Notes under the pieces: generated by a model | Database searches by the model: none | What the model was told of the DNA's origin: nothing | What the model saw: the letters and a program-made list of their open reading frames with translations, nothing else | From: the human T2T-CHM13v2.0 reference genome, Homo sapiens | Direction: 5' to 3' (one strand) | Assembly (NCBI RefSeq): GCF_009914755.1 | Contig: NC_060934.1 | DNA length: 64,000 nucleotides | Program-made: the position numbers and the translations under genes | Shown here: piece after piece, positions 19,305-63,485 of the stretch | Position numbering within the stretch: position 1 is the stretch's first letter | How the letters are laid out: each line of letters starts with the position of its first letter

Positions 19305-19510
19305 GTGTTGGTGGAAATAACCCAGATGAAGAAAAGAATAGCACAGCCAATTCTGGGGTCTCCTCTACAGACATCCTGAGCTTCGGGTACCAGGGAAGTT
19401 TGTTGTCACACACACAAGACCAGGACAGAAATACTGAAGAACTAGACATGGCTGGGGTGCAGAGCTTAGTGCCCAGGCTGAGACATCAGCTTTCCTTTCT
19501 GCCGTTAAAG
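19305..19510 (+). CDS. FRMPD2B: FRMPD2B exon (PDZ1-PDZ2 linker; [18 protein letters not shown]), phase 1 to 0
   Basis: Acceptor ttgtttttatag|G, donor AAG|gtaatc; open frame; 206 nt. Confidence 0.93.
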
Positions 19511-20600
19511 GTAATCATCCCTTGGTTTACTTTCTAGATCTGGATGAAAGAGAACAGACTGTGAAGCCCAACAGCCTGGCCCCTAGGCCCTTCCTGTTCT
19601 CTGTTTTCCATGTCAGGTGGATGGAAGTTACTTAGCCCGTTTGAGCCACAGCTTCCTCATTTGCATACAGAAGCAAATGCCTGCATGGCATGGTTGTTGA
19701 GAAAAACGCATAGAAGAAGGCAGAGTTCTAGGACAGTGTCTGGGCACAGGCTCAGTGTGGGTGCCTCTGGAGTCTTTAGTCACTAATTATAATTGTTGTG
19801 ATAATAGCACCATGAGGAAATTGATTGCTGCCAATGGCAAGGCGTGGGCAATCAGGCACCTCCTATTCTTGTCCTTGAATTGGTCCTCAAGCTGGGAACT
19901 CAGTGGCTTTGCTCTTGACCATACCCCATGGAGGAAGAAGATGGGATCTGGAGTAGGTGTATGGAGGGCTGTGTGCTTCAGTCCCAGCTCTGCTGTCCTC
20001 TGCCGTCTCTTTGGACTCCCAGTGGTGTTGTCTTCTCAGGCCCCGCCAGACCCATGCCCCAGCCTCTCCATTCTGCTCTGGGCCCTGCACAGCTGGTGCT
20101 CATGGACTGAGTCACCTTGCTGTGTTCTGCTTGGTTCTGCCCAGTCAAAGCCTCAGCAGGAGCCCGCAGTTGTGGGATGAGTGAGGACAGGGTGGCAGTG
20201 CTGGAGTCTCAGTTGCACACCCTTCATTCCACTCTCTCCCTGTGCTGACACAGGTTGCCTGTGCCCCTCTACAAAGAGCACAGCTCCTATGAGGGTCCAT
20301 CGACCACTCCCTTCTCTCGCCCTTCAGGCTCAGGGGTGGTCACAGCACCCAGTGTTTCTAGCCCCAGGTGCTGAACTGATATTACTGGTTTCTCCAAAGG
20401 CTGGCAAGACCTTTGAAAACAGGTCTCCCATGACCTATCCTCCCTTACTCAGGCTGAGTGTATGCCCTTCTCATTCTTGCTGGGACAACTTGCTGGTTGA
20501 AACAGGCAGGTTATTGCACCTCTTTCAACCTTGTTTCTCTTTTTATGATGGAGATAATGATGTCTGTCCACAGCCGTGGAAACTAAGGTACTATGCCCAG

Positions 20601-21124
20601 TGTCGGGGATAAAACCCGTATCTTTCTTCTACTCATCTTAGCTTCATCAGCTGGGACCCCTGTAACTAAAGACAGATTAATGAGAGAAAAGCATCCACGT
20701 GTATTTACTATAAGTTTTATGTGACATGTGAGCCTTCTTACGGAAATGACCTGAAGAAACAGTTCTCCCTGAGTATATTTGATGAAGAATGGAGAGTCAT
20801 GGAGAAATGAGATAAGACAAAAAGCAGGAGTATGTAAGGTGGGAGGAACTCAGCAGGGCCTGCTTGTTCAGATTCCTCTCTCAGTCCCTGTGTCTTCCCA
20901 CATAAGATGCTCCATTTTTCCAGATATAGGGAGGGCATTCTCACTTGAGGGTCTTGTGCCCTGCTTCGGGGGAAGATTAGAAAATCCTTCCTAGGTTTTA
21001 GGGCCTGCTTCAGAAGAGAAGGGCAGGGGAAGGTCAGAGAAACCTTCCCTCATGTGCTGTTTCTCCAATTCCTCCAATGTGCCAAGGTGCCCTATTTTGG
21101 GGTAGTGTGTCTTGACCTCTGTCA
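20601..21124 (-). mobile_element. MER31-family solo LTR (ERV1)
   Basis: Reverse complement starts tgacagaggtcaagacacactaccccaaaataggcaccttggca; TG..CA ends. Confidence 0.75.
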
Positions 21125-22161
21125 CAAGGATCTGGCATGCAATAGGGCTCCATGAATGACAGTGCCTTCCTAATTGGCCATGGTGCTCACCTGGACAGAA
21201 CATCCCATGAGGAACTGGATGCAGGAGGCCAGTGGAAGAACAACGATAGTAGCTGCCATTAATTGAGTGCTTACCTGTGTGCCAGGCAGTGTCCTGAGCA
21301 CTTTATATGTATTAGCTCATGGAAGCTCCATGGTAACCCAATGAGATCATTCCTATTATCAACCCCTTTTATGGGTGGGGTACCTGAGACAGAAAGAGCA
21401 AAGGAGCACACCCAAGCTCTCTCAGGGAGCAGGGGACAGAGCTGGGATTCAGATTGGCCTCCAGAGCAGAAACCTTCACCCCAGGCCTTCCTCTGGTAGG
21501 TCCTCTCTGGCAGGAAGCAGAGCAGAGAGGCCTTCATGCTGGGGCTTCTTTGGTGGCAAACCTGAGAGTTGGTTTCCTGGGGCTGGGGGCCGTTGAGGGG
21601 AGCAAGGGAGCTCTAAGGCCACGTTGACCATGGTGCAGGCTGTAGGACGCAACCCAGATGCTGCAGGCTCTTCTGGGTCTCTTGGCCAACTTTGTGGCCA
21701 GATGATCCTCTGTGGTATGGTGGACTTTAGATTCTCACTTCAGGTCTCAACCTCAGCAGTTGAGGCTTCGTTGTTCAGCTTCCTCCAGCTTGTTTATTTT
21801 CCTGCGTGTCGTTAGAATTTTCTAACATTCATGGTGATTAGAAAGCACTAAGTAAAGGGGGCAGATAGGACAAAAGACCCCATCTTCTAGGCAGAGGGAC
21901 AGCGGAACATGAACAGTGACCCAAGCATTCTCTGCCTAGAAGTGGCATCAGCCCAGCCCATCACTCCCTCATCTTCCTCCTGCTTTGTCTGAGGTCACAT
22001 GCAGAAGGCCTGATAAAGCTGGAAATGAATCCCCTGCTGGCCCAGTCCAAAACTCATGATCTTTCTGAGGTGCAATGCTGCCTGCTCCTGAGAGCAGTAT
22101 GAGCCAAGAGGTGACATCTTCCTTCATCCCATCTTTATTTTTGTTTGTTTGTTTATGGCAG

Positions 22162-22266
22162 GGTGCTGGTTCTTCTTGTCCTCCATCACCTCCAGAAATC
22201 AGTGCTGGTGAAATCTACTTTGTGGAACTGGTTAAAGAAGATGGGACACTTGGATTCAGCGTAACT
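22162..22266 (+). CDS. FRMPD2B: FRMPD2B exon, start of PDZ2 ([35 protein letters not shown]), phase 0 to 0
   Basis: Acceptor gtttatggcag|G, donor ACT|gtaaga; 105 nt; TLGF carboxylate-binding loop. Confidence 0.95.
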
Positions 22267-22692: not shown

Positions 22693-23250
<558 letters not shown>

Positions 23251-24379: not shown

Positions 24380-24473
24380 GGTGGCGTTAACACCAGTGTG
24401 CCATATGGTGGTATCTATGTGAAATCCATTGTTCCTGGAGGACCAGCTGCCAAGGAAGGGCAGATCCTACAGG
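24380..24473 (+). CDS. FRMPD2B: FRMPD2B exon, PDZ2 middle ([32 protein letters not shown]), phase 0 to 1
   Basis: Acceptor gtgtttttcag|G, donor CAGG|gtgaga; 94 nt. Confidence 0.95.
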
Positions 24474-24997
24474 GTGAGAGATGGGGATGGGTCCTCATTG
24501 GGAACTCTGTGCTCCATGGTGTAAAGAGCCCTGCACTGGGAGGGGCAGCCTCTAGGCCTTGCCCTGCTCCCATTCTGAAAACTCATGCAAATGATTGCCT
24601 CCCCAGGTCATACTTTTCTCACCTGGAAAGGAGGTGATAGAATCTGCCCTGCCCATTTGATAGGTTGGGGGGTCTGCAGTGGCACACTGGGAAGCATAGG
24701 TGATAGAAAAATAGTAGAAGACTTAAAAGACTTGTGTTGCTCTTTGGCCTCCATGGGAAAACATACTGCTTCCCTTGGAGGACAAGTGGGCCTCGGTAAA
24801 CTCACTCGCACATCCGGGGAGGACACCTGAGCCTTCTGTTTGCCCTTGCTCAGCTCCCACTTCTCTGATGGAAGGGGGTGATTTTTATTGGTCTCCAAAA
24901 CTGCCAGAATTGAGCCAAAAGGGGAACCTAGGATCTTACTTATCTCCATTTCCCCTAGAATTCTGGTGTCCCCAGCGTCAACCATGCCTCCCTGACC

Positions 24998-25295: not shown

Positions 25296-25665
25296 GACCT
25301 TTTTTTGAAATAAAAAAAATACATCCTGGAGATATAAATATCTAAGTGACTTGAAAATACTTTCAAAAACGGTTTCACAGGAAAACAGGAGGAAGGATAA
25401 GGTTGAACAGAGCTGGCTCAACCATTCTGTGAGCCAATAATAGAAAGGCTTTTATATCCCTGATCTGTGATGTGCCTGAGAAGAAGGGAGTGAGACTGCT
25501 CAGAGAGGCAGGATTCCTGCTGACTCCAGGGGGACACCTGGCACCTCAGCTTCCTTTCCCACTTCTCCAGGCTGCATGGAGGGGTGCCGGGCAGGGGCCT
25601 CCTGGAAGGGAACCTCCTGCAGCCTCAAGCACCAGGTCATGACATGACATCTATCCCTTTCCCAG

Positions 25666-25751
25666 GTGACCGACTCCTGCAGGTGGATGGAGTGATTCTG
25701 TGCGGCCTCACCCACAAGCAGGCTGTGCAGTGCCTGAAGGGTCCTGGGCAG
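25666..25751 (+). CDS. FRMPD2B: FRMPD2B exon, PDZ2 ([28 protein letters not shown]), phase 1 to 0; extends 5' to an in-frame ATG at 25644 in the short isoform
   Basis: Acceptor cccttttcccag-like ctttcccag|G, donor CAG|gtgagt; 86 nt. Confidence 0.95.
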
Positions 25752-29413: not shown

Positions 29414-29628
29414 GTCCTAAGTTTGAAGTCAAACTAAAAAAGAATGCCAATGGTTTGGGATTCAGTTTCGTGCAGATGGAGAAAGAGAGCTGCAGCCATC
29501 TCAAAAGTGATCTTGTGAGGATTAAGAGGCTCTTTCCGGGGCAGCCAGCTGAGGAGAATGGGGCCATTGCAGCTGGTGACATTATCCTGGCCGTGAATGG
29601 AAGGTCCACGGAAGGCCTCATCTTCCAG
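29414..29628 (+). CDS. FRMPD2B: FRMPD2B exon, PDZ3 ([32 protein letters not shown]), phase 1 to 0
   Basis: Acceptor cacactacag|G, donor CAG|gtgccg (weak); 215 nt; GLGF motif. Confidence 0.95.
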
Positions 29629-30811
29629 GTGCCGGGGGTCATGGGCAATGCAGCTCTCTGTGCAGGCTGGCCCCAGCTTTGCCTCTTACTAGCCTGCTGC
29701 CGTGGGGAAAACTCTGGGCTCTCAAAAATCACACCAGCAGCCCGGATTTTAATCACACAAAGAGAGTAATTAGTGGTACATGCTCACATTTAATTTAAAA
29801 TCTCTGTTTTTAAATATCTGACCTTGAGTCAGCCTTGCTTCTCACTGGGTTCATGAGAGAAGCTGAAGATAAAGCCCTGGCCTTTGTGCTGGCTGACATC
29901 TCTTCACACACATCCTGGGAGGTGGGCGTGGGGCTGAAGGGACTAGAGTGGGTCCCTTTCTGCTCTCCTTCCCATTTCTCAACACATTTACAGCTTTTCA
30001 TACATTATTACACTGATTGTCCTGTCTATGATAAAAAATGCAATTTAAGAAGAGAGAGTAATGAAATACTGTATATATTAGACAGAGTCCTGGAAGAAAA
30101 TGGAGTCATTTGAGGAACATTTAATAAAGGTGTGGGCAGGTTGTTAGGAAGCTCAAGGGAGCATGTTGTGGCCTAGGGCTAGGATAGGAAGAGTGGGATG
30201 CAGTTACCCCTATCCTGAGGCCAAAGGGGAAGGGAAAGAGCAGTTATTCCACCCCAGGAATGGAGAGCTGTTGGAGGGGACTCACTGGCATGAGCTCTCA
30301 CTTTGGCTGAGGTTGTAGTCGTCCCATGGCAACCTGAAGGGAGGAATTTGGAAGGAGCAATGACCTCCGCTCCTCCCTGTCTCTGGTCTCTTGCCGTGTT
30401 CCCCTAGCTGAGCCCAACAGGAAGCCTCATGCAGCCTTTATAAGTCAGCTCCAGAAACACAAAGCAAGATGGACAAAGGGGGACAGTGGCTCTGGGCAGG
30501 GCTGGGGGGAGGTCTCTAGAACACCATATGCTTGGGTGGGAGGGCATGCCTTCATCCATCCATCTCCTGATCCAAGAACCCTTCTCTGAGAACCACTGCT
30601 GGGCTGGCAACTCTATGAGAGACTGAAGACACAGAGGAAGACAGCTCATGCAGTTTCAGAGCTCATGGACAGAAAACAGCGGTGATGGCAGGAGATATGT
30701 ATCCTGAGAGATGAAAGCCCATGCTGCAGTGCTCACACCAGTGAGCCAGGAAAGAAGTGCACCCCTTGGAAGTCCTGCGTGGCTGAAGCAGGGACTGGGG
30801 AGTGTCTTGAT

Positions 30812-31029
30812 CAGCAGTTCTTAAGCAGAGATTATTTCCTTCTCATGGGATATTTGATTAAGTCCAGAGACATTTGTGATTGTCACAACTGATGAGTGCT
30901 TCTGGCATCAAGTGAGTAGAGATCAGAGATGCTGCTAAACACCCTACAATGCACAGGACAGGCATTCGCATAAGGAATTGTCCAGCCTGAGAGGTCAACA
31001 GTGCCAAGAGTTTGAGAAATCCTGGTCTA
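30812..31029 (+). mobile_element. MER20 (hAT-Charlie)
   Basis: ..gattgtcacaactg..ctggcatcaagtgagtagag..gatgctgctaaacaccctacaatgcacaggacag..tgagaaatcctg. Confidence 0.8.
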
Positions 31030-31933
31030 AATAGGAAATAGGAGCTATCGAGGCAACCTTGAACCCTGGACATTGAGAGGGTGGCTTGGAGCAACAGATT
31101 CAGCATGGCAGGGGCTTAGGACGTGGGTGCAGAGGGGAGTAGATGGGAGAGAGGGAACTGTGGTGAGAGGCAGAGGCAGGCAGAAACGGGGTCTATGTGC
31201 TATGCCTTGGAGCTTACATTGAGGGAAAAGTGAGTCAGCCAGGGTGTGCAGTGGGGGAAGGACTCAGTTATATCTGCACTGTGGAAAACTACCCTTGAGC
31301 ATTGCAGAGGGAGGCAGGTGGGTGACACTGGAGAAGGCAGCAAGCAGTGAGGAGGTCACTGCAATACTACAGGTGAGAGGTTCCCAGAGCCCAAGCCGAG
31401 CCCTGATAGGAAGCTCAGAGCCAAGGGTCAGGCTTTAGAGATTCAGATGGTGGAGGCTGCAAAATTGCTGGCCCAAGATGAGGGCAGGTTGGGAGGAAAG
31501 GGCAATTGAGATGAACAGCTATTTGTTGGAGTCATTCTTTCTCTCTCTGAAGAAAAGGCATTGGTATTGGCAGATATTGCCATTCCCTTGAGCAATGTGG
31601 AAGGAGGCAGGTGGGTGACACTGGTGAAGGCAGGGAGCGGAGAGGAGGTTACTGCAATATTACAGATGAGAGGTTCCCAGAACCCAAGCTACACAAAGGT
31701 GATGCACAGCCCAGCATCTTGCATCAACTTTGTGGAAGCTGCAGGCCACTGACCTTGGTTCCTTGCACTTTGAAAAGTCAGGCCCACAGCAGGGTTCTCC
31801 GGAGTTCTCTGGAGTGAGAAATAGATCAAGGTGCAGGGAGGAGGAGCTAGTGCCTGGGACGCAGTGGGGAGAACATCACTGCATCCCCAGCAATGCAAGC
31901 CCAAATCTAACAGTGAATCTTGGTTTCTCGCAG

Positions 31934-32032
31934 GAGGTGCTGCATTTACTGAGAGGGGCCCCACAGGAAGTCACGCTCCTCCTTTGCCGACCCCCTCCAG
32001 GTGCGCTGCCTGAGATGGAGCAGGAATGGCAG
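31934..32032 (+). CDS. FRMPD2B: FRMPD2B exon, end of PDZ3 ([33 protein letters not shown]), phase 0 to 0
   Basis: Acceptor tttctcgcag|G, donor CAG|gtaggc; 99 nt. Confidence 0.95.
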
Positions 32033-36959: not shown

Positions 36960-37303
36960 ACACCTGAACTCTCAGCTGACAAAGAATTCACCAGGGCAAC
37001 ATGTACTGACTCATGTACCAGCCCCATCCTGGATCAAGAGGACAGCTGGAGGGACAGTGCCTCCCCAGATGCAGGGGAAGGCCTGGGTCTCAGGCCAGAG
37101 TCTTCCCAAAAGGCCATCAGAGAGGCACAATGGGGCCAAAACAGAGAGAGACCTTGGGCCAGTTCCTTGACACATTCTCCTGAGTCCCACCCTCATTTAT
37201 GCAAACTTCACCAAGAAAGGGATGAATCAACATTGGCGACCTCTTTGGAAAAGGATGTGAGGCAAAACTGCTATTCAGTTTGTGATATCATGAGACTTGG
37301 AAG
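36960..37303 (+). CDS. FRMPD2B: FRMPD2B exon ([22 protein letters not shown]), phase 0 to 2
   Basis: Acceptor tttcttttaatag|A, donor AAG|gtaaga; 344 nt; translated by hand, no stop (missing from the ORF track for lack of an early start codon). Confidence 0.94.
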
Positions 37304-43257: not shown

Positions 43258-43306
43258 ATATTCCTTCTCATCTCCTCTAACCAGACTTTCGACAGATATT
43301 TTCTGA
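43258..43306 (+). CDS. FRMPD2B: FRMPD2B terminal coding exon (R-YSFSSPLTRLSTDIF*)
   Basis: Strong acceptor ctttgtgcttttctcttag|A; phase 2 completes AGA; TGA at 43304-43306. Confidence 0.92.
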
Positions 43307-43838
43307 GCACCTTCTCTGCATGTCTGCAGTGCTGTGTAAAATGCCCTACCTTTGCATGGACTATTCTTTCTAATCAAGAGGCGTGTGTGGCGAACTTGGG
43401 GCAGCCCCTGGAAGTCTTGTTCTTTGACCATTACGTCTGCGGCTGCATCACCAGATAATGAGCTTCACCACTTGTCTGCCTCCTGTGTCCTTCCGCGGGG
43501 AGTAAATGTCACTTCAGCTTGCCGCATCTCTAAATAGGCAAATTTTCAGTGCTCAGAAAAGGACCTGATCTTTGCACAAAGTGCTTTGATGGTTGCCTGC
43601 TTGAGTCACTCCCAATCCCTTCCTGAAGCCCTTTCTTTATAATTCTTCTGTTGAAATAGCCATCATATTCACAGTACTAATCACAGCATCTCACATTTAC
43701 TAAAAACTTACCCCATACCAGGAACCCAGAGTTGGGGGGGCTGTGTCAGAATTATGTAATTTACGTGTCCCAATAATCCTAGATGCTTCTTGACCATCTA
43801 GTTTTGTCAAATGAGAAAACTGAGGTTCCAAAGAAGTC

Positions 43839-44050
43839 AATAAACTTGTCCAAAGTCTGACCGACTCTGCTTGCCATGTGACGAGTCTGTCTTAGAACTG
43901 GGTCATTGCCCTGCTTGCAATGCTGTGCCCTCTGGCAAGCCCCCCCACCCCCCTGGTCTCCTGAGCTCGGTAAGGTGCTCCAGCTGCCTCTACCATAGCA
44001 CTTCCTACATGGACTGTAACATTTCTTTACTGCTCCAACTTCTCATTAAA
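43839..44050 (+). terminator. Candidate poly(A) signals of FRMPD2B: AATAAA 43839-43844 (in a MIR-like remnant) and ATTAAA 44045-44050
   Basis: Hexamers seen 530 and 740 nt after the stop codon; usage not demonstrable from sequence. Confidence 0.5.
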
Positions 44051-44253
44051 TTGGGGGCTCCTCAAAGCCAGGGTTGGTGCCTTATAAGTTTCTTGCTTCC
44101 TGGTGCCCAGAGCAGCCTCTGGCATGAGCTGTTTGAACACTGGCTGAGTCTCACGGGCCTGTGTCGTGCAGAGTATTCTAAAAGGCAAGGGGAAGGTGGG
44201 GTGAGGAATTTTTTTTATCAAGGCTGGAAGAAACATGGGCTTCTGTATTCTAG

Positions 44254-44535
44254 TCCTGAATTGGATGGGGAGGATGGGGAAGGTGACATGTACCATCCAT
44301 GTGGAGCCCCTTCTCCCACCTCGGAGGATGAAGAGTATCTTACCATCAACTCTACATGCCAAGGCCAGCTACCCTGTGAAGAATGTTTGGAGGCAGATTC
44401 TGGGACCATTCCCTTGCCACAGTTCTGCTCTTGGGGCACTGTCCCAGAGTCTTTGCCTCCAGAAGAGTCCCCAGAGAGTGGGAGTGAATGGGAAGACCTG
44501 GAGGAGCCTGTGGCCCTGGAATACGGTGCCCTCAG
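44254..44535 (+). CDS. Candidate alternative/ancestral FRMPD2 coding exon (S-PELDGEDGEGD..ESGSEWEDLEEPVALEYGALR), phase 2 to 2
   Basis: Acceptor ttctgtattctag|T, donor CAG|gtgggt; 282 nt; in phase with the donor at 37303; protein-like acidic sequence inside the longest ORF of the window. Confidence 0.65.
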
Positions 44536-46728
44536 GTGGGTGTCACTCTGGCTGGGTGAACTGGGGCTGAGCTCTGACCAGAGCAGGGCTCAGTGCTATC
44601 AAGCCACTTCAACTGGGGGTGGGGGATGGTCTGTGGGCATTGCCCAGTTTCCCCTGCATCTTCTTTGGGGGTCATGCATCATTGTAATGGCCATTTTCAC
44701 AGAACACTTACCATGGCCCTTGCACCATGACAACGACCTACAACATGGGGACTGTCATCACCCCCATTTCACACATGACACATTTGGGGCTTTCCCAAGG
44801 TTATCCAATAAGTAAGTGACAGAACTAGAATTCAAACCTGATCGGTTCCCCACTCCACGGCCCACCTGTCGAGCACCCATCTGTTCTGCCTCCTATGTAC
44901 AGGAGTGTGCATCCCTCTCCTCAGGTCTCTCTCTTTTGGGGGTCTGAATGTCTAGTGCTGATTCCTGTTTTGCCTGCTCCTACCTGCCCCTCTGCTGGAT
45001 GTACTGCAGAGAAGAGTCTTGGTGTCCTGTCATAGGGCCCATCTTGTTGGACTGCTGTGGCTGAGTATAGACCAGCATCAGGAAAGTCTCACTGTTAATG
45101 CAAGGAGCCACCAGAAGCTGACCTGGTCACCAGGCAGGGTCAGAACATATTGATGAGGACACAGAAAAAGTAAGGGCAACAGAAACTGTCACACTGGGAA
45201 GAAGGGAGGTTAAATTCTGGGCAGGTCTGTAACCACTCAACATTCTGTTAAAGTACTTACAGTGTATATTTAAAAATGCTGAATGTTCCAAAAACTTTCA
45301 CATAAACACAGTTTCAAGGTCCACTGAAACTTAACGAGACAACAGTTTGAGAAGTTTCAAGTATAATTGAAACCCACTCCTTAACTTTCCTCCTATTGTG
45401 TCCCAGCTCCATTTTCCTGGCTGTACATAAGGAAGCTCAGCCACCACAAATGATTGAGCTGGAGCCTCAGAGGACAGTGGTGGGCCAGCTGATAAGGAGA
45501 GTGGATATTTGAAATTAAAATATAACAAAAGGGCTGGTTCTTATCTGAAATAGGAAGCAACAAGTTAATAGAGTGGAAGATTCAGAGGCTTTGAAGACTG
45601 TGCATGTTCATTTATGGGGAAGTACAACACTTTACAGCATTGGGAGTGTACGTTATGGATTCACAGAAATGTGGGCAAGCAGGAAGCAGCTTGTATGCAG
45701 GGGGCAGTCTTCTTGGAGCTGGCTCCGCAGGGCTGGGAAACAGAAAGAAGAAGGCTGAGCAATTGGTGGGGACCACAAGGGCCAGTCCACTGAGATCTGC
45801 AGTGCGTCTGAGCCAGCCGGGAAGAGAAAGGCAGAAGATGTGGCATTGTGGTTGGGGGAGCTCAGATTTGAAGCCTGGCCCTGCCACTCACTGGCTGGGA
45901 GACCTGCAGCACATGACTTTTAAACCATTCAATATGCAGCTGACTGCCAGATAACCAAACCCACTTCATGCGGTTATGACAACGCCAGGTGTGTAGTGGT
46001 AAGCGCTTAAAAAACATTAGCTATTTTTATCATCAATCACAAAGGAGAGAATTACTCCAGTGAGAAGATATAAGCTTTTTAATGCATTCAATCCTGTTGG
46101 GTTTTTTCCATGTAGTCAAAGAAACTAGACAGTTGGACTTGTGCCCTAACATGTGGTATGGGTCTGGGTGGGGAGAAGCACTCACCTATGGCAAGGGTGC
46201 CAGGCTCTACCATGCCCTCATCTATATATGGACTGTAGCATGGGCTGTGCTCAGGGTGAGTCCTGTTAGAATCACTGATCCTGCACAAAAAGGAGAACAG
46301 GTCTCACCCTCCCCTGCAGACAGAGGATGGGTGTGCCAACATGAGTGCCCAAGGCATGAGTTCTTAGTTTGGCTCCATGCAGCAGCCCACAGGTGTTCTT
46401 CATGGCATCTATGGGCTATTGCACCTAGAATGTTGACTTGTGTGCTTCTTTTGGGAAATACAGGTCTTAACAGCCTTTAAATTCTCCAAAGTGTCTATAA
46501 CCCCTATAAGCTGAACCCCCTCCACTGTATATATTATCTCATTTATAAAGAGGACTTTGCCTACAGAGCAGTGTAGCCTTTAAACCTAATCACCAATTAT
46601 TTCATTTGGTCCTTTTAGACATTAAGACAGTCATAGTGCGTCTTAAGGTAGTTTCTACATGTGATTTAACTTAATCCTTATGTCAGTTTTGAGTGATATT
46701 CTTATTTCTGTTTTTAAAGGGGGCTTAG

Positions 46729-48305: not shown

Positions 48306-48308
<3 letters not shown>

Positions 48309-48343
<35 letters not shown>
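48309..48343. repeat. (CA)n microsatellite
   Basis: Seen directly. Confidence 0.95.
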
Positions 48344-48344
<1 letters not shown>

Positions 48345-50239
48345 CAGAGAAAGACTGGTAGGAAACAGGCTCTCGTTTTATCAGATCTGCAGAGGAATGA
48401 TCACTCTTCCAGCTTACTGCAGTAGACCAAAAGTATAACAACAGAAAACCTACAAAGCTGACAATATTGAAAAAGTTTAAACTTCCATACAATAATAATG
48501 ACAAAACTCATGTAAAAAGAATAGCAATGGGTTGGGAAAGCATTTACATAATTGTGAACAAAGATTAATATTTTTAATATTTAGAAAGCCCATTTTAATT
48601 TATAATAGATCAATACAGGATTTCCATAGACAAAATATACGATAAAATACAAATGGCCAACAAACACACAAAATATTCTAACCAAAACAATGTCAATATA
48701 CTGATTTGCATTCATTACATTCATAAAATTTAAAAAAACTGTCCAATGCTGGCAAAATTTTGCTGAAGCTGGCATATTCAGAAATATCAAAAGCTATAAA
48801 AATGGGTATACCCACTCACCCAACAATGAAATCCCTGAGAATTATCCCACAGAAATAATCCAGAATAAGAAAAAAATCAATTTATTTAAAAATGTTCACT
48901 GTAGTGCTCTTGATAAAAACAACAAATTGGAATTGGCTGAAATGCATTAGAATAATGATAACATTAGAGAAAATGATGGTACAATAGCATAATAGAATAC
49001 TGCACTGCCAAGAAAGTAATATAACTACGAAGAACTCGCAACTTAGTAAAGTGTTTGATATAATAACTCAGAATTACATGCTGGTTACAACTATGGAATG
49101 CCTCGCAGGCACAAGGAGAAGCACCGTGAACAGAGGGGAGGCTCAGCAATGGAACAGAAATTGACCAAAGTTTGGGTGATGGGATTAGGAGAATACACTT
49201 TATTTTGTTAAAAATTACCTTTATATATCTATTACTTATATAATAAATTTTACATTGAAAATAAAGAGACTGAAACTGCAAAATAAGAGAAGGAAAGCAA
49301 CAATAACCAACCAAACAAAAACAAAGACTAAGATTAAAAAAGCCTGTGCTCTAAAATCTAATTCATGAACTCTCCTCTATGTTCTTTTGTTTCTAATTTT
49401 TCTGTTCTCCTTATGACAGAAAAATCTTATGGGTCATTTGGCTTCTTCTGCTATTAATGAAAAAGATGTTTCCAGGGATCTGAACAGCCTTGTTCTAAAT
49501 TCTCTCAGAGCTGAGGCCAGCTCCCCTGGTGCATCATTACAGTTTCACAGGCCTCAAGGTTAGGGAACTAATCAAGTATGCAATGAAGTGATTAAATAAC
49601 AGTATTTACAATTTAGGAACTGCTCACATTCTGCTGAACATTGGTTGCTTATTTCCTCTTTGGAAAAGAAATTGGTGGATACAGGCTCAAAATACATCTG
49701 GTCCTCCTCCTTGTAGGAAAGGACCACCCTTGACTCCCAGGCTGCTATACTCATTTTGAGCCATATATCAGGAAGAACATGTTAATTTGTCTTAGGTGGA
49801 CTCAATTGCAGCTACCACTTGCTTTGTTTCAGGGCAAATGTCAGAAAGAACAGCTAATTCCTAGGAGACTCAGCTCAGCGCCTGCACACTGCTTCCATTG
49901 TTGGCTGCTACATGCTACAAACCTGGCTGTGCTTGAGGATCAACTATAGCAGGTGTTCAAAATACAGATTCACTGGCCTCATCCCGGAGATTCTGAATCA
50001 GTAGGGCTGAGATGAAGCCCAGAAATCTGTACTTTTACCAAGCTCAGCAGATGGTTGTTTCTGTGGCCAGATTTAAGGACAACTGATCCAAACTCTTCAA
50101 GACTTCACTTGGCCTTCCCATCCTTCCTCCCTGCCATAAATATTTATGAAGCTCCTATTATGTGCCAGCACACCGTTGTTACGAGGTTGCTAAAGCATAT
50201 ACATATTCAGCACTAAATTGTAGTGCAAAAGTGGGCTTC

Positions 50240-51770
50240 CAAACTCAACATAGTAAAAGCATCAATTCTCCCCAAATTAATTTTATAGGTCCAATGCAAT
50301 TCTTACCAAAATCCTAGCAAGGTATTTTGTAATCATAGATGAGTTTATTCTGAAATTAATTTTATAAATTTTATTGTATATTCATAATGTAATTTACATT
50401 ATACAAATAAAAATATCTTCTGAAACTTATTTGAAAATGCACAAGCACTAGAATAGCTATAATCTTCAAAAAGTAGAGTGGAGTGGGAGGAATCACTGTA
50501 ATTAATATTAAGGCTTACTATATAGCTACAGTAATAGTGAGACAGAAAGATGGACACATAGATCAATGGAACAGAATAGATAATCCAGAAATAGACCCAC
50601 ACAAATATTCCCAACTGATATTTGACAAAATGCAGGAGAAATTCAATGAGGAAAGAATTGCTTTTTCAATAAATGGTGCTGGAACAATAGGACATCCGTA
50701 GATGAAAAAAAAAAAAAAAAAGATCATTGACATTAAACCTCACACCTTGTACAAAAATGAACTCCATATGGATCCTGGACTTACATGTCAATGCAAAACT
50801 ATATGATTTTTAGGGAAAAAAAGGGGAAGAAAATCATTGGGATCTAAGGCTAGGCAAAGAGTTCTCAGACTTGACACCAAAAGCATGATCTGTAAAAAGA
50901 AAAGGAAAACTTGACAAATTGTTTTTTGTTTATTCTTTTTCTCTGTAAAAAGTCTCTGTTAAGAGGATAAAAGATCCAAGCAACAAATGAGGAGGAAGTA
51001 TCCGGAACAAAGGACTAGTATTTAGAATACATAAAGAACTCACAAAACTCAACCTTGACAAAAGAAAAAAATCCCATTAGAAAATAAGAAAAATACATGA
51101 ATGGATATTTCACTGAAGATAATATACAGATGGCAAATAAGCACATGAAAAGATGCTCAACTTCAATTAGCCACTGGGGAAATGCAAACTAAACTACAAT
51201 AAGATATCTCCACATATGTATCAGGATGGTCAAATAAAAAATAAGGACAACACCTAATGCTGCTGAGGACATGGAGAAAGGGGATTGCTCATACATTGCT
51301 CATGGGAATGTAAAATAGTGTATACATTGTGGAAAATGGTTTGATTGGGTCTTACGAAACTAAACACACGATCACCATAAGACCCAGCAATTGCACCTTG
51401 GGTATTTATCCTAGAGAAATTAAGATTTGTGTTTATACAAAAACCTTTACGAAAATATTCATAGCAACTTAACTTGTAATGACCCCAAATGAGAAAGAAC
51501 CCAGATATCCTTCAAATAAGTGAATGGCTAAGTAACATGTGGTAATCCATATCAAAAGAAATAACTATTGATACTCACAACAACTTCTATGAAACTCCAG
51601 AGAGTTATGTGGAATGAGAAAATGCCAATCCCCAAAGGTAGTACAAGTATGATTCAATTTATAGAACATTCTTAAAATGACAAAATTATGGAAATGGAGA
51701 ATGGATTAGTGGTTACAAGAAGTTAAGGAGAGGTGGGGGAGAAGGGAAGGCCCAATTGGCTTTAAGGCAA
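50240..51770 (+). mobile_element. Old L1 (L1M) ORF2 3' end plus 3' UTR
   Basis: ORF 50483-50701 [42 protein letters not shown] resembles L1 ORF2p; frameshifts and stops around it. Confidence 0.88.
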
Positions 51771-54981: not shown

Positions 54982-56244
54982 CACCCATGAGGGTTTATAA
55001 AAAATTGAGGCCAGGAGTAGAAAATTCCTCTGAAAAGAGTTGTTGGAATGCTATGACATTTCCCCTTCCATACCTCTTTCCCCTCCTTGTGGAGGGGAGA
55101 GGAATGAGGTACCTCTCCTTTCCCTCCAGCCACATGAGAAAGACTGCTCAAATCATATACAGGGTTTGACATGTGTCTTCTGAAAGGGCTTGGTGTCTGG
55201 AACATCCCTGAGCAATCTCATGGTGAGAGGTGATGACGGCAACAACATGTCTGGCGGGAGAGCAAAGAGAAAGAGGATGGCGCTAGGAGTGAACCGCCAA
55301 TCCCCGTGTCAGGGCAAGGGCGCGGATGCCCTTTTTATGTAGGCAAGTAAGCTGCAGGCAGGTCATAGCCTGTAAAACAAGCAGGGGTGATGTTGACCCC
55401 AGCAGAGAGAGAGCCAGAGCCTCAGCTCACACAGAGCATGCATTAGGGGGAATCACAAAAAGGCATCCACCTGTAGCTTATGAATTACACAAAGGTGGCC
55501 CTTCCTTTCCTGTGCAGCCCATTATTGGGGCACAAAACCATGCCTACAACTCAGCCTCCACTTACTCATTTGTCTGGTACCTTTATTCATGGCACAAATT
55601 ACATAAACAGATTGGTAGCCCTGGATGGGCCAAGGAATGGTCTTGTAAGTAGCTGGGCAGAGGCAACATCACTGGGCATGGGTTTGTACTCAGAGATCTT
55701 CTGCAGGGGAATTCCTGAGAAAACACAAGATTGTCTCACAGAAGAAATGGCCAGCTCAAAATATCTGCTGAGCCCAGGGGGCCCATTGCTGAAGGACTCC
55801 AGCTGTAGAGGTGTCAGACACCCACTGAGTCTGGAGGGCCTGGGTGTGAAGCTGGGTGAGAAAGGAGAAATTGATGGTACCCATTTCTCAGGCTGAAGGT
55901 GAAGAGAGCCTAACAATTAGATAAGTCAGAGGGAATCTTAAACTGAAATGGGAATATTCTGGGTGTTCAAAGTTATAAACCAGCCCAAGATTTCATCTGC
56001 ACGGGCCCAGGGGAAAAAAGCATCTGGGCATTGAGTTCAAATGGCATTGGAAAGAAATTTGCACTCTGTTAGGTCCAGCTAATGAGATGCAGTTCAATGA
56101 AGACATCTGTATTCTTGCTGTAAAGCACAGGGCTTGGCGCAGACCAAGGAATGACTCATAAGGATTAAAAGGCATGAAACCAGGTTCTTTCTTAGAATTT
56201 GGCAGTCTTTGCACTTCACTTTCTGCCACATCATTATTTTACAG

Positions 56245-56430
56245 TTAGTACGTAGAGCTGGAAGTGGAGGGCAGGACATTTATGTTCAAGGGTTTGTGGC
56301 AGGCTCTCCTGCCAGCTGAGCAGCTCTCTCCTGTCGAAGTCTATGGATTCTCTCTCCTTGTGGTGTGTGCACGCAGAGCCATGGGCTGGCTGAAGCTGCA
56401 AATGGATGAGCAGCCAACAAATTGATCAAT
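56245..56430 (+). pseudogene. Decayed PDZ-domain exon
   Basis: After ttattttacag| it reads LVRRAGSGGQDIYVQGFVAGSPAS*AALSCRSLWILSPCGVCTQSHGLAEAANG*AANKLIN, colinear without gaps with PDZ2 of this window; two in-frame TGA. Confidence 0.6.
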
Positions 56431-57548: not shown

Positions 57549-58591
57549 CCCAGGGATTAGCATTGAGCCTCGGACCATGCAGGAAATAAGGAGGCGGTGT
57601 CTGGGGGCTGTGGTGCAGCAGGCAGGGGACAACCAAGCGACTTCCCAGCCCTGTTGGAAAGTGGATCTGGAGGGATGGACTAAAAGAGGCAGAACTGAGG
57701 CCTGGGCTGGAGGACCTGAGAGTGAAACTGGGCCTGCACTGGGGAGTGAGGAGGACCTGAAGCTGCAATGGGAAGCCCTGTGTGGCTGAATCCTAGAACC
57801 ATGAGGAGAGGCAACATTAGCAACTAGATCTCTGGCCTCTGCTTTTGGAATCACTTTTGGATTCACTTTTGGATGAGTGGTGCATGAACTCATCCAGACT
57901 GATGTGTGAAGGGCATCCAGGCTTACCCCTGAAGTATGGAGACTGCAGTGGGTCTGTTGCTCACAGAGGAACTCCCAGAAACTCTGGGAGAGTCACAGAC
58001 CTAGAGAAGCGTATGGCTCAAACCTCTTGAGCAAGAAAAGCAGTGTTCACTGCCAGGCGTGGTGATGAATGCTTCTGTTTTTTGTGTCATTAAACACTTG
58101 CAACTGTGTCTCCTTTTTTAAAAAAAGGAAAACTGAGACACAAGTTGGGAAGTAACCTGCCAAAGGTCACCAACTATTCAGTAGCAAAGCAGGGACTTAA
58201 GGCCAGGCTTGCAAAGCTCCTAGTGCTACTGGTAATTGGTAAGACTCAAGGGTTTAAAGAGGCCTCCAAAGAAGGGTAGTAAACTGTGATGGGCCCTAAA
58301 CTTTATAGTTCTTCGAATTTTTCACAGGTAAAAGGACAGAAAGCCAAGAAGAGCCTTCTGGGTCACTGGCTTCTGGGAATATTGTGTGGTCAAGCAGGAA
58401 GTCTGGGGGAGATGGAATGACACCTCAGGGTCCACTCTTACCAACTGTTCATTTAGCCTCCATGCAAGGATTTCCTGGTGATGTGAATGGGGGTTATTCC
58501 CTCTGTGTGTCTTGGAGCAGCCATGCTGCTCATGTTTGTGAAATGATGACCAGTGCAGAATCTTGATGTTAGGCACTATGAAGAAACATTA

Positions 58592-59355
<764 letters not shown>

Positions 59356-59959: not shown

Positions 59960-60560
59960 GGGAGAGGGGGACGCGCACAGGGTGGTGCACAGGGCCCGCA
60001 GGGAATTTACAGCGGCGTCCGCGGCGATGGGCTCTCAGTGCCTTGGAAGACCGGTAGAGGCAGGTTCTGTCTCTCCCGGCCTGGCAAGCAGAGGGCCGCG
60101 GCGCAGGGCAGAGTGCCGCGGCGCAGGGCAAAGCTCCAGTGCGCAGGCTCGCGGGCGCAGGTGGGATTGGATAGCGACGAAGGCCGGCAGGCTAGGCGTG
60201 GACCCAACTGGCGAGGCTGCTGGGGTTGCAGCGGGACAGTTGGGGCGGCCCCGCAGGCCCAGGTGAGGAAAGGTGGCTGGGGGCCAGGTGGGCAGGGGGC
60301 GTGCGGGAGGCCGCTGCGCCGGGCTGTGGGAGGGCGGGCGTGAAGAAGGAAGATGCCGTTGACGTGCAGGGGTCACAAGGCGTGGGTTGTGGCCCTGGCC
60401 CGGGAGACTGCCCGGGTGGGCCTGAGCTGTGAAGTAGTGTCGCTGCAGCCAGAGGGCAGGACGTGATTCTGGCCGTGTGATGCCAGCTGCACTGTGACGC
60501 GTGTTGGGGCGCCTATGCGAGACGGGACCGGGACAGGAACCCTGTGGCTCTGTGGTAGGG
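59960..60560. promoter_or_regulatory. PTPN20: CpG island promoter (PTPN20)
   Basis: The only CpG-dense non-Alu stretch in the window; GC-box-like motifs, inverted CCAAT (gattgg ~60165), duplicated gccgcggcgcagggca; about 17 kb downstream of FRMPD2B, where PTPN20 lies by my recall of the locus. Confidence 0.85.
60170..60262 (+). other. PTPN20: PTPN20 non-coding first exon (5' end approximate)
   Basis: Within the CpG island, ends at consensus donor CAG|gtgagg; gene identity from synteny, since PTP exons are outside the window. Confidence 0.65.
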
Positions 60561-60603
60561 GAATGCCACCAACTCCCTGAGGAGCAGCCGTGTGGTATGA
60601 TTG
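60480..60603 (+). other. PTPN20: PTPN20 alternative first exon contributing ATG ATT G (Met-Ile-, phase 1); 5' end approximate
   Basis: ATGATTG|gtaaga at 60597-60603; agrees with my recall of a PTPN20 isoform starting MIVNDYEG. Confidence 0.55.
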
Positions 60604-63485
60604 GTAAGAAGCCATCATCAGGCGCTGAGACAGCCCAGAACTTCCCAATGACTCAAGGGCGGGTGGAGGTCGAGGGACCTAGAAAGAAAGAACATGAATT
60701 CATCAATCCATTCAGCAGCTATTTTGAACGCCTCCTGTGTGCCAGATGCTGTTCTAGAAGCTCAGAATATCTATGAACGCGATAGGCAATGCCCCCATAT
60801 GCCAAGGCCCTCATATGCTAGCCTTGACTCAAGGAAAACTGTAGGATGGGGTAGGTTTCATTTTTGGAAGTTGTGGAATCAGTACTTATGTTTTGAATGT
60901 GTTAGGTTTGAGATGCCCAGTAGGTTTTTCCCAATAGAAGACATAAGCATAGCTGGGAAGAATTTTGCAGAGGACTCTGACCACCTACCACCTACAGGTG
61001 CCATGAATATTTAGCACATTTGATTTTTCACATTACCTATTCACCTTCTCTCCATTTTTCAGTCACCTGGTAGTTTTTTTTAGTATGGTGAAATATACAC
61101 ACATAAATTATCTAGTAGATATTTGGGTTGAGATATCAAATGTGCTTTTTAGAAATTTAAATCTGAAGTTCTGGAGGATGTCGGGCTAGAGTTAACCTTT
61201 GGAATCGGCATCATATACTGTACATAGTATTTAAAATATATGGGACTGGTGAAGACATCTAGTTTAATAGTGTACACAAAGAAGAGGAGGCGAAGCCAAA
61301 AAAGGGAGGGAGGTAGTGGTCAACCATGTTGAATGTTACCGTATAAGATGACTTTGGTAATTAGGAGGATTTTAATCATTTTGACAAGAACAACTTTAAT
61401 GGGGAAGAGGGGCCTTAAGGTTGGGTAGAGTTTTTTTCAAGATAGAAGAAAGCAGAATGTTTATATGGCAATGTGATTAAACTCGTAGAAAGGAAAAACT
61501 GCTGCAGATGAAAGAGGGGAACATTGTAAAGGGTAGTTGTTGAATACCTGAGAAAGGAGAAGACCCTAAGCAGGTGAGTAGTTGGTTTTGAAATGAGCAG
61601 GGACACTTACTCTGTTGTAACTAGAGGGGAAGCTGAGATAACAGGTGCAGATACAGTGGGTGGTGGGAAAAGAGTCTATTGGTATAGGCATCCATCAGCT
61701 TAGAGGGAGGGCAGCGGGGGAGAGGAAAGGTGTGGGAACTTGGAGGAGAGATATGTGACAGAGTCCTAGAGAGGGTGAAAGTGAGCGTACTAGAGAAATA
61801 GAGTTGGATTCCCAGGCAGTGCTCAGGGCCCATTTGAGACGTGTAGTCTTACATTTAAAGTGATATAAACCAGTGTGGTTGTTTCATGTTCAACTTTGGA
61901 AGGGTGTTGTGAGGATTAAAGAAGGTAATGCATGAAAAACATTTAATAGAGTGTCAGGCGTTTAATGAATGTTAACGCTTTTTATTTGAGCCCTCGTTTT
62001 GTTTTTCTTTTCTGTTTATACATATGTGACTGAGGATGGCTGGCAATTACCACTTGACAGGCTGTTCTGGGGCATGTTCTCCCATCACAGAGAACTGCAG
62101 TTTGCAGCTACTCAGAAGTCTGGTTCCTGTTGTGTTTACATGTACACAGCTTGATAATTGAAGATGTTTGCTTTTTAGAGCCATTGTCCTGGACTGTTTG
62201 GGCTGGGGTTTGTCACAGTGACAGTCCTTAAGTTTTTGTGAAAATCTTTTATGACTGCATTTCATATTGGATCTGATGTACTGGTAATCTACAGAATCTA
62301 CAAATCTAAGATTGGCAGGAAAATTTTCAGTTTAATAGATTTTCATTTCTCCCTGACCACTTGAGCTGTTTTAAAATACAAATAATAATAATGGCTGACA
62401 GAAAGCTCTTAAAAGTGCCAAGTACTTTTCTAAGCACATCACATGCCTAATCTTGTTTAATCATCACCTCAGCTCTACAAGGCAGGTACAATTATTATCC
62501 TGATTTTTCAGATGCAAAAATAGGCTCCAAGAGGTTAAGTAATTTGCCCAAGGTGCCCATACCCTGACCTCCAGTTTCTACTGCAGACAATAACTTTTTC
62601 TTTTTTTTTAAACTGCTTGGCCATCACTCATCTGCATTGCAGTGGAGTACTTAAGATGTTGGACTCCAAAGCCAGATTGCCTGGTTTCAGAAAACTGCCA
62701 CTTAGTAGCTATGGGACTTTGGGTAAATCATCTAACTTCTGTGTGCCTTTGTTTCTTTTTTGACAAAATGGAAATAATAATAGTACCTGCCTGATAGGGC
62801 TATTATCATCGCAGTTGAGAATCACATGAGTTAATATATTTAATATGCCTAATATAGTGCCTGGTTGTTTAAATGCTACTATTATCACCTGCCTGGTAGT
62901 ACCACCATGGTGCTGTATATACTGATTGGTTTGATCTATCAAAATAAGATTCCAAGTGTCCTGTTATTGTCTAAGCAGAGTTTTAAAATTGCAGCCCACT
63001 ATATTATTCCCACCTCAGGGATCACTCCTGTTTCCTCTGAGTTTATCTCTCTGAGGGAAACAAATAGATAACAGTTTGCTTCCAGGAGCAGACAACAACT
63101 CAGATTTCATTCAGACTCATTTGACCAATAGAGTTCATTTCATTAATCCTGGCATTACATACCACTTAGCAAAGGGGAATAAGGCTTGGGGAGTAATGTG
63201 ATTCCATGTTGCTTTTCCCAGATCAGCAGCCCATTTAGAGGAATTTGGTTAGAAATACCAACGGACTACATAGCCAGTATTTGGCACAGCATAGGGTAGG
63301 TGATGTGGGTCAGTGGGCTGGACATAAAAGTGTTCTGAAAAGATCTGTAAAGTCATTGGAGTTACTGTGATGTGTTGTGTCAGTTACTGATTAAAAGTAA
63401 CTGGCAGGCTTGGCATTTGAGACCACTGAAAGTTTTAAATGATCTTTCTGATATACAACACGTAGAGTAAATGTATGATACAAAG

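What the first reader, a model, noticed from the sequence alone, without database searches (positions are those of the whole stretch)
19305..62340. A split gene caught in decay: the FRMPD2B-PTPN20 spacer appears to keep the missing middle of an ancestral PTPN13-like KIND-FERM-multiPDZ-phosphatase gene
Established: PTPN13 is KIND-FERM-5xPDZ-PTP, FRMPD2 is KIND-FERM-3xPDZ and PTPN20 is a bare PTP. From recall, fish ptpn20 has been described as a full-length PTPN13 paralog that includes the FRMPD2 part. Seen here: the two genes lie in tandem on the same strand. Between or just after them, in plausible domain order, are an intact acidic exon (44254), a GSFGF-type PDZ remnant (~49400), a stop-disabled PDZ exon (56245), a possible linker exon (58328) and a GLGF remnant (~62200). 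Inference: fission happened by gaining a new terminal exon/poly(A) (43258-44070) and an internal CpG promoter (~60 kb), leaving the intervening PDZ exons as unannotated fossils. Rare read-through could still yield PDZ-PTP chimeras.
Basis: partly seen in the sequence, partly recalled or inferred. Interest (0 to 1): 0.85.

Follow-up and report, generated by a model that had tools for sequence, protein, structure and literature searches.

The report
One fossil PDZ exon between FRMPD2B and PTPN20
The DNA between the human FRMPD2B and PTPN20 genes keeps one working acidic exon and one broken PDZ exon from an ancestral single large gene, which supports an idea published in 2012, while the other three proposed remnants look like chance.

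Summary
Partly confirmed, and the main idea is already in print. Van Eekelen et al. 2012 (PMC3335823) showed that FRMPD2 and PTPN20 are one PTPN13-like gene.

Two of the five proposed spacer elements are real.
- **Acidic exon, 44254-44535.** It is intact, conserved from sharks to humans, and in frame with the upstream FRMPD2B exon. It is also in frame with a downstream PTPN20 coding exon.
- **PDZ exon relic, 56239-56409.** It carries two in-frame TGA stops. It matches, in colinear order, the main exon of the fifth PDZ domain of full-length FRMPD2/PTPN20 proteins of marsupials, sauropsids, caecilians and fishes. It scores 21.8 bits with an exon-specific profile, against at most 7.7 bits for any control or other exon profile.

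The GSFGF (49.4 kb), 'linker' (58.3 kb) and GLGF (62.2 kb) sites never exceed control scores. GLGF-like motifs are as common on the opposite strand (4 versus 4).

No trace of the other PDZ4-6 exons was found across 91 kb. The relic is 421/421 identical downstream of the full-length FRMPD2 copy.

Two results appear new. The ancestral gene had six PDZ domains, not five. The human genome cannot encode the 'five-PDZ' read-through protein stated in the literature.

The parts
19304..22266 (+). FRMPD2-derived exons upstream of FRMPD2B (annotated LOC100420617), at 19304-19510 and 22159-22266
   Evidence: tblastn of macaque FRMPD2 X1 (P0002): residues 864-932 at 94% identity and residues 932-967 at 94% identity
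24380..25751 (+). PDZ2 exons, at 24380-24481 and 25665-25751. The second lies inside FRMPD2B exon 1.
   Evidence: tblastn hits from all 7 full-length orthologues. Pfam PDZ E=0.007 for 25425-25751.
29414..32032 (+). PDZ3 exons, at 29414-29628 and 31934-32032
   Evidence: Pfam PDZ E=3.4e-10. tblastn E=1e-18 to 1e-26.
36960..37303 (+). Post-PDZ3 tail exon, ending '...CDIMRLG'
   Evidence: tblastn colinear hits. In frame with both the annotated terminal exon and the acidic exon.
43258..44070 (+). Annotated FRMPD2B terminal exon. It adds 16 residues and a stop, and has ATTAAA at 44045.
   Evidence: In-silico splicing and motif scan; hub annotation
44254..44535 (+). Acidic exon, intact and conserved, and not annotated in this window's gene table. 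It carries the 'DEEYLTI' and 'SEWEDLEE' motifs.
   Evidence: Splice sites. 36 mammalian proteins carry it. 13 of 13 non-eutherian orthologues hit it. Profile score 51.8 bits. In frame with exon 36960-37303 and with the PTPN20 exon at window coordinate 95329.
45408..45512 (+). Possible alternative terminal coding exon, 'SIFLAVHKEAQPP...RVDI*'
   Evidence: 97% match to the C-terminus of a macaque model, P0036; sequence
56239..56409 (+). Vestigial main exon of ancestral PDZ5 (the homologue of the PTPN13 PDZ5 exon). It has TGA stops at 56317 and 56407 and no frameshift over 53 codons.
   Evidence: tblastn 7 of 7 and 12 of 13, best E=7.7e-6 at 49% identity. Exon profile 21.8 bits against at most 4.5 bits for the same profile elsewhere. 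Closer to orthologues than to paralogues. 421/421 identical in the FRMPD2 parent locus.
60000..60600 (+). CpG island around PTPN20 exon 1 (60189-60262)
   Evidence: GC 0.65-0.72 and CpG observed/expected 0.61-0.94; hub annotation
49362..49562 (+). 'GSFGF' site. Not supported as a PDZ remnant.
   Evidence: No tblastn hit at E<=1. Not among the top PDZ4 profile scores, and plus-strand scores do not exceed controls. Two copies in the genome only.
58309..58563 (+). 'Linker exon' ORF. Not supported.
   Evidence: No hit with the linker profiles or with any of 37 eutherian model tails
62125..62361 (+). 'GLGF' site. Not supported as a PDZ remnant.
   Evidence: PDZ6 profile scores of 0.8 bits or less near this site, while controls reach 8.3 bits. 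The spacing from GLGF to the 'GD' motif is about 10 residues too short (by eye).

Best explanation
The window holds the 3' part of a human-specific partial copy of FRMPD2 (FRMPD2B) followed by PTPN20. Together they are the eutherian remains of one ancestral gene, a paralogue of PTPN13 that encoded KIND-FERM-six PDZ-PTP.

In the lineage leading to placental mammals, the module holding PDZ4 to PDZ6 was lost. Two pieces of the old middle survive in the spacer.

1. The acidic exon (44254-44535) is still a working coding exon. It can end FRMPD2 long isoforms. Because its end phase matches, it can also splice in frame to a PTPN20 coding exon.
2. The main exon of PDZ5 (56239-56409) is dead, disabled by two TGA stops. 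The first TGA sits where glider and caecilian proteins have Arg, which fits a CGA-to-TGA change.

The other PDZ4-6 exons have been deleted or have decayed beyond detection. The GSFGF, GLGF and 'linker' sites are chance resemblances.

What is shown: homology, colinearity, the stops, frame compatibility, and presence in both human copies. What is inferred: the timing (placental stem lineage), the mode of loss, and any present-day read-through product.
For: - Fused orthologues with FERM, PDZ and PTP domains are found in marsupials, caecilians, birds, turtles, alligator, squamates, gar, bowfin, shad, sharks and chimaera.
- Pfam finds 6 PDZ stretches in alligator, eagle, gar, shad and sawshark, and 5 in glider, koala and one caecilian.
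- The hit order is colinear: FRMPD2B exons, then 44252, then 56239, then PTPN20 exons at window coordinates 92.7, 95.3, 113.8, 116.8 and 133.0 kb.
- Relic: 21.8 bits, against at most 4.5 bits for the same profile anywhere else in 91 kb of plus strand and three control sets. The caecilian tblastn hit has E=7.7e-6 with 26/53 residues identical.
- The relic is nearer to FRMPD2/PTPN20 orthologues (BLOSUM62 scores 48-101) than to the human PTPN13 PDZ5 exon (26) or to FRMPD2B's own PDZ2/3 exons (18-37).
- The PTPN13 exon C4:90104931-90105149 covers the same profile positions, 218-290. The relic therefore corresponds to one ancestral exon.
- The acidic exon lies in FRMPD2 models of many mammals and at the N-terminus of squirrel and hamster PTPN20 models. 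The in-silico joins are open in frame.
- The relic is 421/421 identical, and its surroundings 3409/3421 identical, in the FRMPD2 parent locus.
- None of the 120 listed relatives of the alligator PDZ4-6 region is a placental mammal.
Against: - Generic tools do not see the relic. Pfam PDZ gives no hit at E<=10 or E<=1, and the PDB search gives only E of about 1 to DLG4 PDZ3.
- Individual tblastn E-values are weak for most species (0.002-0.8), and sawshark gives none at E<=1.
- No other placental genome could be examined. Timing and mode of loss are therefore inferred only from gene models, which can miss exons.
- Two published texts state that the elongated human transcript encodes five PDZ domains (PMC3335823, PMC9900141; passages read). 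Their figure and supplements could not be seen, so a conflict with their sequenced RT-PCR products cannot be excluded.
- Short or fast-evolving exons (PDZ5a is about 20-28 residues) could escape these profiles.
Confidence: 0.85

Rival explanations
1. One reading: five colinear fossils (acidic exon, GSFGF PDZ remnant, stop-disabled PDZ exon, linker exon, GLGF remnant) preserve the whole missing middle, decaying in place.
For: The motifs exist and lie in a plausible order. By eye, 'SFGFFCY**K...S*GQL' at 49.4 kb resembles the skink PDZ4 'SYGFTVVANK...SDGRL'. The three stretches are not high-copy repeats; each has two copies.
Against: There is no tblastn hit at E<=1 from up to 13 orthologues. The PDZ4, PDZ6 and linker profiles never place these sites among the top scores, and plus-strand scores do not exceed controls. 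The GLGF-like motif count is 4 on the plus strand and 4 on the minus strand. If these sites had decayed in place for as long as the 56.2 kb relic, they should be about as detectable as it is.
Confidence: 0.06
2. The 56.2 kb match is a chance PDZ-like ORF, or a fragment copied from another PDZ gene, and is not an orthologous relic.
For: Pfam and the PDB search give nothing significant. Most single-species E-values are weak.
Against: The exon profile scores 21.8 bits, against at most 4.5 bits elsewhere. The hit has the same frame and boundaries in 12 of 13 species and lies in colinear order. It is nearer to the orthologues than to PTPN13 or to FRMPD2B's own PDZ domains. Only two copies exist in the genome, both in the FRMPD2-PTPN20 units.
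Confidence: 0.03
3. The PDZ5 exon is not merely a fossil. It is still spliced into read-through transcripts as a stop-carrying ('poison') or non-coding exon, and this has slowed its decay.
For: A polypyrimidine tract and AG lie directly before 56245. There is no frameshift over 53 codons. Its identity to orthologues (36-49%) is about that of the functional acidic exon (32-44%). It alone survives while at least four neighbouring exon pieces are undetectable. Read-through RT-PCR products with 'missing exons' were reported in HEK293 cells (PMC3335823).
Against: No exon is annotated there in RefSeq (hub table). No expression data could be examined. Survival of one exon while the others were removed by deletion is an equally simple account.
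Confidence: 0.1

Closest known systems
FRMPD2 and PTPN20 as a single PTPN13-paralogue gene (van Eekelen et al. 2012, PMC3335823; Hendriks et al. 2023 review, PMC9900141)
   Same: Same locus and same conclusion: FRMPD2 is the 'missing upper half' of PTPN20. Fused forms exist in fishes, and read-through products were reported in human cells.
   Different: Those texts describe five PDZ domains and imply an intact human full-length form. Here the ancestral form has six PDZ stretches. The human sequence holds only PDZ1-3 (PDZ2-3 in FRMPD2B) plus one stop-disabled PDZ5 exon. No passage read mentions a relic exon. Their figure and supplements were not seen.
PTPN13 (PTP-BL/FAP-1) PDZ4-PDZ5 exons on human chromosome 4
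   Same: The exon layout is the same. One exon covers profile positions 218-290, the main body of PDZ5, which is exactly the part that survives as the relic.
   Different: PTPN13's exon is intact. The relic has two stops and shares only 16/49 residues with it. No PTPN13 counterpart of PDZ6 or of the acidic exon was detected in the 40 kb examined.
Vestigial exons left by domain loss or gene fission (general phenomenon; recalled, not searched)
   Same: A colinear, stop-disabled exon lies in what is now intron or intergenic DNA.
   Different: Here the relic lies between two units that are annotated as separate genes but can still be joined in frame through a neighbouring live exon.
FRMPD2B as a human-specific 5'-truncated duplicate (Soto et al., bioRxiv 10.1101/2024.09.26.615256; Dougherty et al. 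2018, PMC6169893)
   Same: The window's FRMPD2B keeps PDZ2, PDZ3 and the tail, as those papers state (passages read).
   Different: The passages read do not discuss the acidic exon, the relic, or the link to PTPN20.

Membership tests
Orthologous exon of the FRMPD2/PTPN20 (PTPN13-paralogue) gene: 56239-56409 | Significant similarity to the same exon in orthologues | tested here: met
   Exon profile built from 54 sequences scores 21.8 bits; the next best score for that profile in any of the four sets is 4.5 bits. The caecilian tblastn hit has E=7.7e-6.
Orthologous exon of the FRMPD2/PTPN20 (PTPN13-paralogue) gene: 56239-56409 | Colinear position between flanking orthologous exons, on the same strand | tested here: met
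   The order is 44252, then 56239, then 92684, in 12 of 13 queries.
Orthologous exon of the FRMPD2/PTPN20 (PTPN13-paralogue) gene: 56239-56409 | Closer to orthologues than to paralogous PDZ domains | tested here: met
   BLOSUM62 scores are 48-101 for orthologues, 26 for PTPN13 PDZ5 and 18-37 for FRMPD2B PDZ2/3.
Functional PDZ domain (Pfam PF00595) | Open reading frame and a match to the family model | tested here: not met
   There are two in-frame TGA stops. There is no Pfam hit at E<=10 or E<=1. The exons for the rest of the domain were not found.
PDZ4 / PDZ6 / linker relics at 49.4, 62.2 and 58.3 kb | Similarity to the corresponding ancestral exon above control level | tested here: not met
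   The best plus-strand scores are 2.3-7.0 bits and lie elsewhere, while controls reach 7.7-8.3 bits. There are no tblastn hits at E<=1.
Live coding exon: acidic exon 44254-44535 | Open frame, canonical splice sites, conservation, and use in gene models | tested here: met
   Splice sites and frame. 36 mammalian proteins carry it. 13 of 13 non-eutherian orthologues hit it. Human expression was not tested.
CpG-island promoter at PTPN20 exon 1 | GC above 0.5 and CpG observed/expected above 0.6 over at least 200 bp at an annotated first exon | tested here: met
   Over 60000-60600, GC is 0.65-0.72 and observed/expected is 0.61-0.94. Promoter activity was not tested.

The most novel reading that the evidence does not exclude
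The PDZ5 exon survives, when every other PDZ4-6 exon has vanished, because it still works at the RNA level. It would be a stop-carrying exon that is spliced into FRMPD2(B)-PTPN20 read-through transcripts and so keeps the two halves functionally separate. The acidic exon would offer the alternative in-frame bridge to the phosphatase. In that case placental mammals would regulate, rather than have simply lost, the link between scaffold and phosphatase.
Probability: 0.1. Interest if true: 0.55.

Novelty: new member of a known kind. Interest (0 to 1): 0.33.

Why it matters
The idea that FRMPD2 and PTPN20 are one gene has been in print since 2012, so the headline is not new. Four things here go beyond it.

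1. There is a concrete molecular fossil, with coordinates, that ties the human locus to the ancestral fused gene.
2. The ancestral gene had six PDZ domains. Marsupial gene models keep five. Placental mammals keep three.
3. In this assembly the human genome cannot encode the 'five-PDZ full paralogue of PTPN13' described in the literature. The most it could encode is PDZ1-3 (or PDZ2-3 from FRMPD2B), the acidic segment and the PTP domain.
4. A conserved acidic exon is absent from this window's gene table, yet it could bridge the two genes in frame.

This matters for annotation. It also matters for reading studies of FRMPD2B and PTPN20 as human-specific duplicates.

Tried and rejected
- **Generic Pfam scans.** Scans of the candidate sites and of read-through frames of 48-52, 55.5-58.7 and 61.5-63 kb found nothing. 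They missed even the true relic, so their silence says nothing about the other sites.
- **PDB sequence search with the relic.** It gave only E of about 1 to DLG4 PDZ3, which is not usable.
- **Transposon check.** I asked whether the 49.4, 58.3 and 62.2 kb sites lie in high-copy transposons. Each is present only twice in the genome, so this did not refute them. By recall, an L1-ORF2-like peptide ('[20 protein letters not shown]', about 50.5 kb) lies nearby, but Pfam did not confirm it.
- **Short PDZ5a profile.** It gave plus-strand scores of 7.2 bits at about 78.4 kb and 5.8-7.1 bits at about 63.8 kb ('SNVQLGLRFTG'), against controls of at most 4.3 bits. Both lie out of order, the longer exon-accurate profile did not support them, and I treat them as chance.
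- **Hamster PTPN20 model exon.** It matches 49806-49862 weakly (12/19 residues, E=0.05-0.3) but matches no ancestral PDZ profile.
- **Whole-protein search of the human genome.** It ran under a stricter filter and did not list the relic. The DNA search did find it.


Full report
**Observation.** The window is human chr10 (T2T) with FRMPD2B followed by PTPN20 on the plus strand.
- The acidic ORF has a good acceptor (ttctag|T at 44254) and donor (AG|GTGGGT after 44535).
- At 56245, after a pyrimidine tract and AG, the frame reads LVRRAGSGGQDIYVQGFVAGSPAS*AALSCRSLWILSPCGVCTQSHGLAEA.
- GSFGF (49431) and GLGF (62200) are bare motifs surrounded by stops.

**What is already in print.** Van Eekelen et al. 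2012 (PMC3335823; passages read) proposed that frmpd2 and ptpn20 are one ptpn13-like gene. They amplified products joining the two from zebrafish embryo and HEK293 cDNA. [quoted passage not shown]
- A 2023 review (PMC9900141; passages) repeats this for the human gene.
- Soto et al. (bioRxiv 10.1101/2024.09.26.615256; passages) and Dougherty et al. 2018 (PMC6169893; passages) describe FRMPD2B as a 5'-truncated human-specific copy keeping PDZ2 and PDZ3.
- None of the passages read mentions a relic PDZ exon. The other literature searches turned up no such report either.

**The acidic exon is alive.** A search with its 94 residues found 36 proteins. They include FRMPD2 'isoform X1'-type models of primates, carnivores, rodents, ruminants, elephant and mole, in which the exon follows '...CDIMRLG' directly. 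They also include PTPN20 models of a ground squirrel (P0011) and a hamster (P0035) that begin in or just before this exon.
- Splicing exon 36960-37303 to 44254 keeps the frame open. The annotated terminal exon (43258-44070) instead adds 16 residues and a stop, with ATTAAA at 44045.
- The exon ends with two bases of a codon, the same phase as the PTPN20 exon that precedes the one starting at window coordinate 95329. An acidic-exon-to-95329 join therefore reads through into PTPN20 ('...EYGALSGSDPSMW...'), as in the squirrel model.
- The exon is ancient. 13 of 13 non-eutherian orthologues hit it, and it scores 51.8 bits against their profile. The conserved motifs are 'DEEYLTI' and 'EWEDLEE'.

**The ancestral gene.** Searches with squirrel PTPN20 and with the alligator PDZ4-6 region recovered fused proteins of 1981-2353 residues. 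They come from marsupials, caecilians, birds, turtles, alligator, squamates, gar, bowfin, shad, anchovy, sharks, rays and chimaera, and are mostly named 'FRMPD2'.
- Pfam finds six PDZ stretches in alligator, eagle, gar, shad and sawshark. It finds five in sugar glider, koala and one caecilian.
- None of the 120 listed relatives of the alligator PDZ4-6 region is a placental mammal (193 passed the threshold, and 73 were not listed).

**The relic.** By tblastn, 7 of 7 and then 12 of 13 (sawshark missed) full-length orthologues hit 56239-56397. The hits share one frame and one set of boundaries, and lie in colinear order after the acidic exon. The best is the caecilian, at E=7.7e-6 with 26/53 residues identical.
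- I built a profile from 54 orthologues spanning the acidic exon to the start of the PTP domain.
- Run against read-through frames of 43-64 kb, it gave only two positive scores: the acidic exon (31.2 bits) and 56254-56403 (7.9 bits). The best of the minus-strand, reversed and complemented controls was -4.9 bits.
- Exon-wise profiles on overlapping tiles gave 20.7-21.8 bits at 56.2 kb. The next best score for the same profile, across 91 kb of plus strand and the three control sets, was 5.2 or 4.5 bits.
- The human PTPN13 gene has a single exon (C4:90104931-90105149) covering the same profile positions, 218-290. The relic is therefore the counterpart of the main PDZ5 exon.
- The relic is nearer to the FRMPD2/PTPN20 orthologues (BLOSUM62 scores 48-101) than to that PTPN13 exon (26) or to FRMPD2B's own PDZ2/3 exons (18-37).
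- It carries TGA at 56317, where glider and caecilian have Arg, and TGA at 56407.

**The other three sites.** No orthologue hits 49.4, 58.3 or 62.2 kb at E<=1.
- Profiles for PDZ4a, PDZ4b/5a, PDZ6a, PDZ6b and the two linker parts never rank these sites among their best. Their plus-strand maxima are 2.3-7.0 bits and lie elsewhere, and do not exceed control maxima of up to 7.7-8.3 bits. The one exception is the known PTPN20 exon at 113.7 kb, at 24.6 bits.
- GLGF-like motifs occur 4 times on the plus strand of 44.6-64 kb and 4 times on the minus strand.
- None of 37 eutherian model tails uses these sites.
- The stretches are not high-copy repeats. They are therefore unsupported rather than explained away.

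**Beyond the window.** I read the next 70 kb. It holds PTPN20 coding exons in colinear order, but no trace of PDZ5c or PDZ6.
- The whole unit is duplicated. The parent FRMPD2 locus lies on the minus strand near 48.99-49.02 Mb.
- That locus carries the relic with 421/421 identity, and 3409/3421 identity around it. The relic is thus a feature of the human FRMPD2-PTPN20 unit, not of the FRMPD2B copy alone.

**Reading.**
- Shown: one live exon and one dead exon of the ancestral middle remain, in order.
- Inferred: the PDZ4-6 module was lost on the placental stem, mostly by deletion. An exon decaying in place should be about as visible as the relic is.
- Inferred: the scaffold and phosphatase halves then came to be expressed separately, through terminal exons after PDZ3 or after the acidic exon, and through the CpG-island promoter at 60.0-60.6 kb.
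- A present-day in-frame scaffold-phosphatase product is possible through the acidic exon, but it would lack PDZ4-6. This is at odds with the 'five PDZ' description of the human product in the two texts read.

**Limits.** No other mammalian genome, no conservation track and no expression data could be consulted. Gene models can omit exons. Very short exons may escape the profiles. Generic Pfam and PDB searches do not see the relic, so the case rests on orthologue-specific comparison with controls.

Noticed in passing
P0053, P0157, P0256, P0266, P0257 (orthologous proteins): Full-length FRMPD2/PTPN20 orthologues of alligator, eagle, gar, shad and sawshark show six Pfam PDZ stretches, one more than PTPN13's five. 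Glider, koala and one caecilian show five and lack the first post-acidic PDZ in their models.
   Followed up: partly
window 44300-44510: Two short motifs in the acidic exon are conserved from sharks to humans: 'DEEYLTI' and 'S(E/D)(E/N)EWEDLEE'. The second looks like an acidic W-x-x-L motif of the LC3-interacting type. That motif definition is recalled, not tested.
   Followed up: no
window 45408-45512 and 44920-44952: Short ORFs match the C-terminal tails of other primates' FRMPD2 models: macaque P0036 at 97%, and Aotus P0004 at 11/11 residues. They suggest alternative terminal exons just after the acidic exon.
   Followed up: partly
window 49806-49862: 'LQLPLALFQGKCQKEQLIP' matches an exon of a hamster PTPN20 model (12/19 residues, E=0.05-0.3). 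It may be a rodent-used 5' exon, and it has no ancestral PDZ signal.
   Followed up: partly
window about 63830-63880, and window coordinate about 78400 (outside the window): The short PDZ5a profile scores 5.8-7.2 bits here, for example at 'SNVQLGLRFTG', against controls of at most 4.3 bits. The hits are out of colinear order, the longer exon profile does not support them, and they are probably chance.
   Followed up: partly
G000 C10:48.91-49.08 Mb versus the window's locus: The full-length FRMPD2 copy lies upstream of the PTPN20 copy annotated as a pseudogene, while the protein-coding PTPN20 lies behind the truncated FRMPD2B. The two PTP-domain exons examined score identically in both copies (166.8 and 93.6 bits).
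   Followed up: no
P0001 (296 aa; sources lgn, ena): A 'protein' in the metagenome-derived database is 100% identical over the query to the human ORF 43844-44812. This is presumably human DNA in metagenome assemblies.
   Followed up: no
window 47640-47680 and 48300-48345: Dinucleotide (TG/CA) microsatellites, seen as CVCVCV and THTHTH runs in translation.
   Followed up: no
window about 50480-50700: The ORF '[20 protein letters not shown]...' looks like a LINE-1 ORF2 fragment. The resemblance is recalled; Pfam gave no hit.
   Followed up: partly
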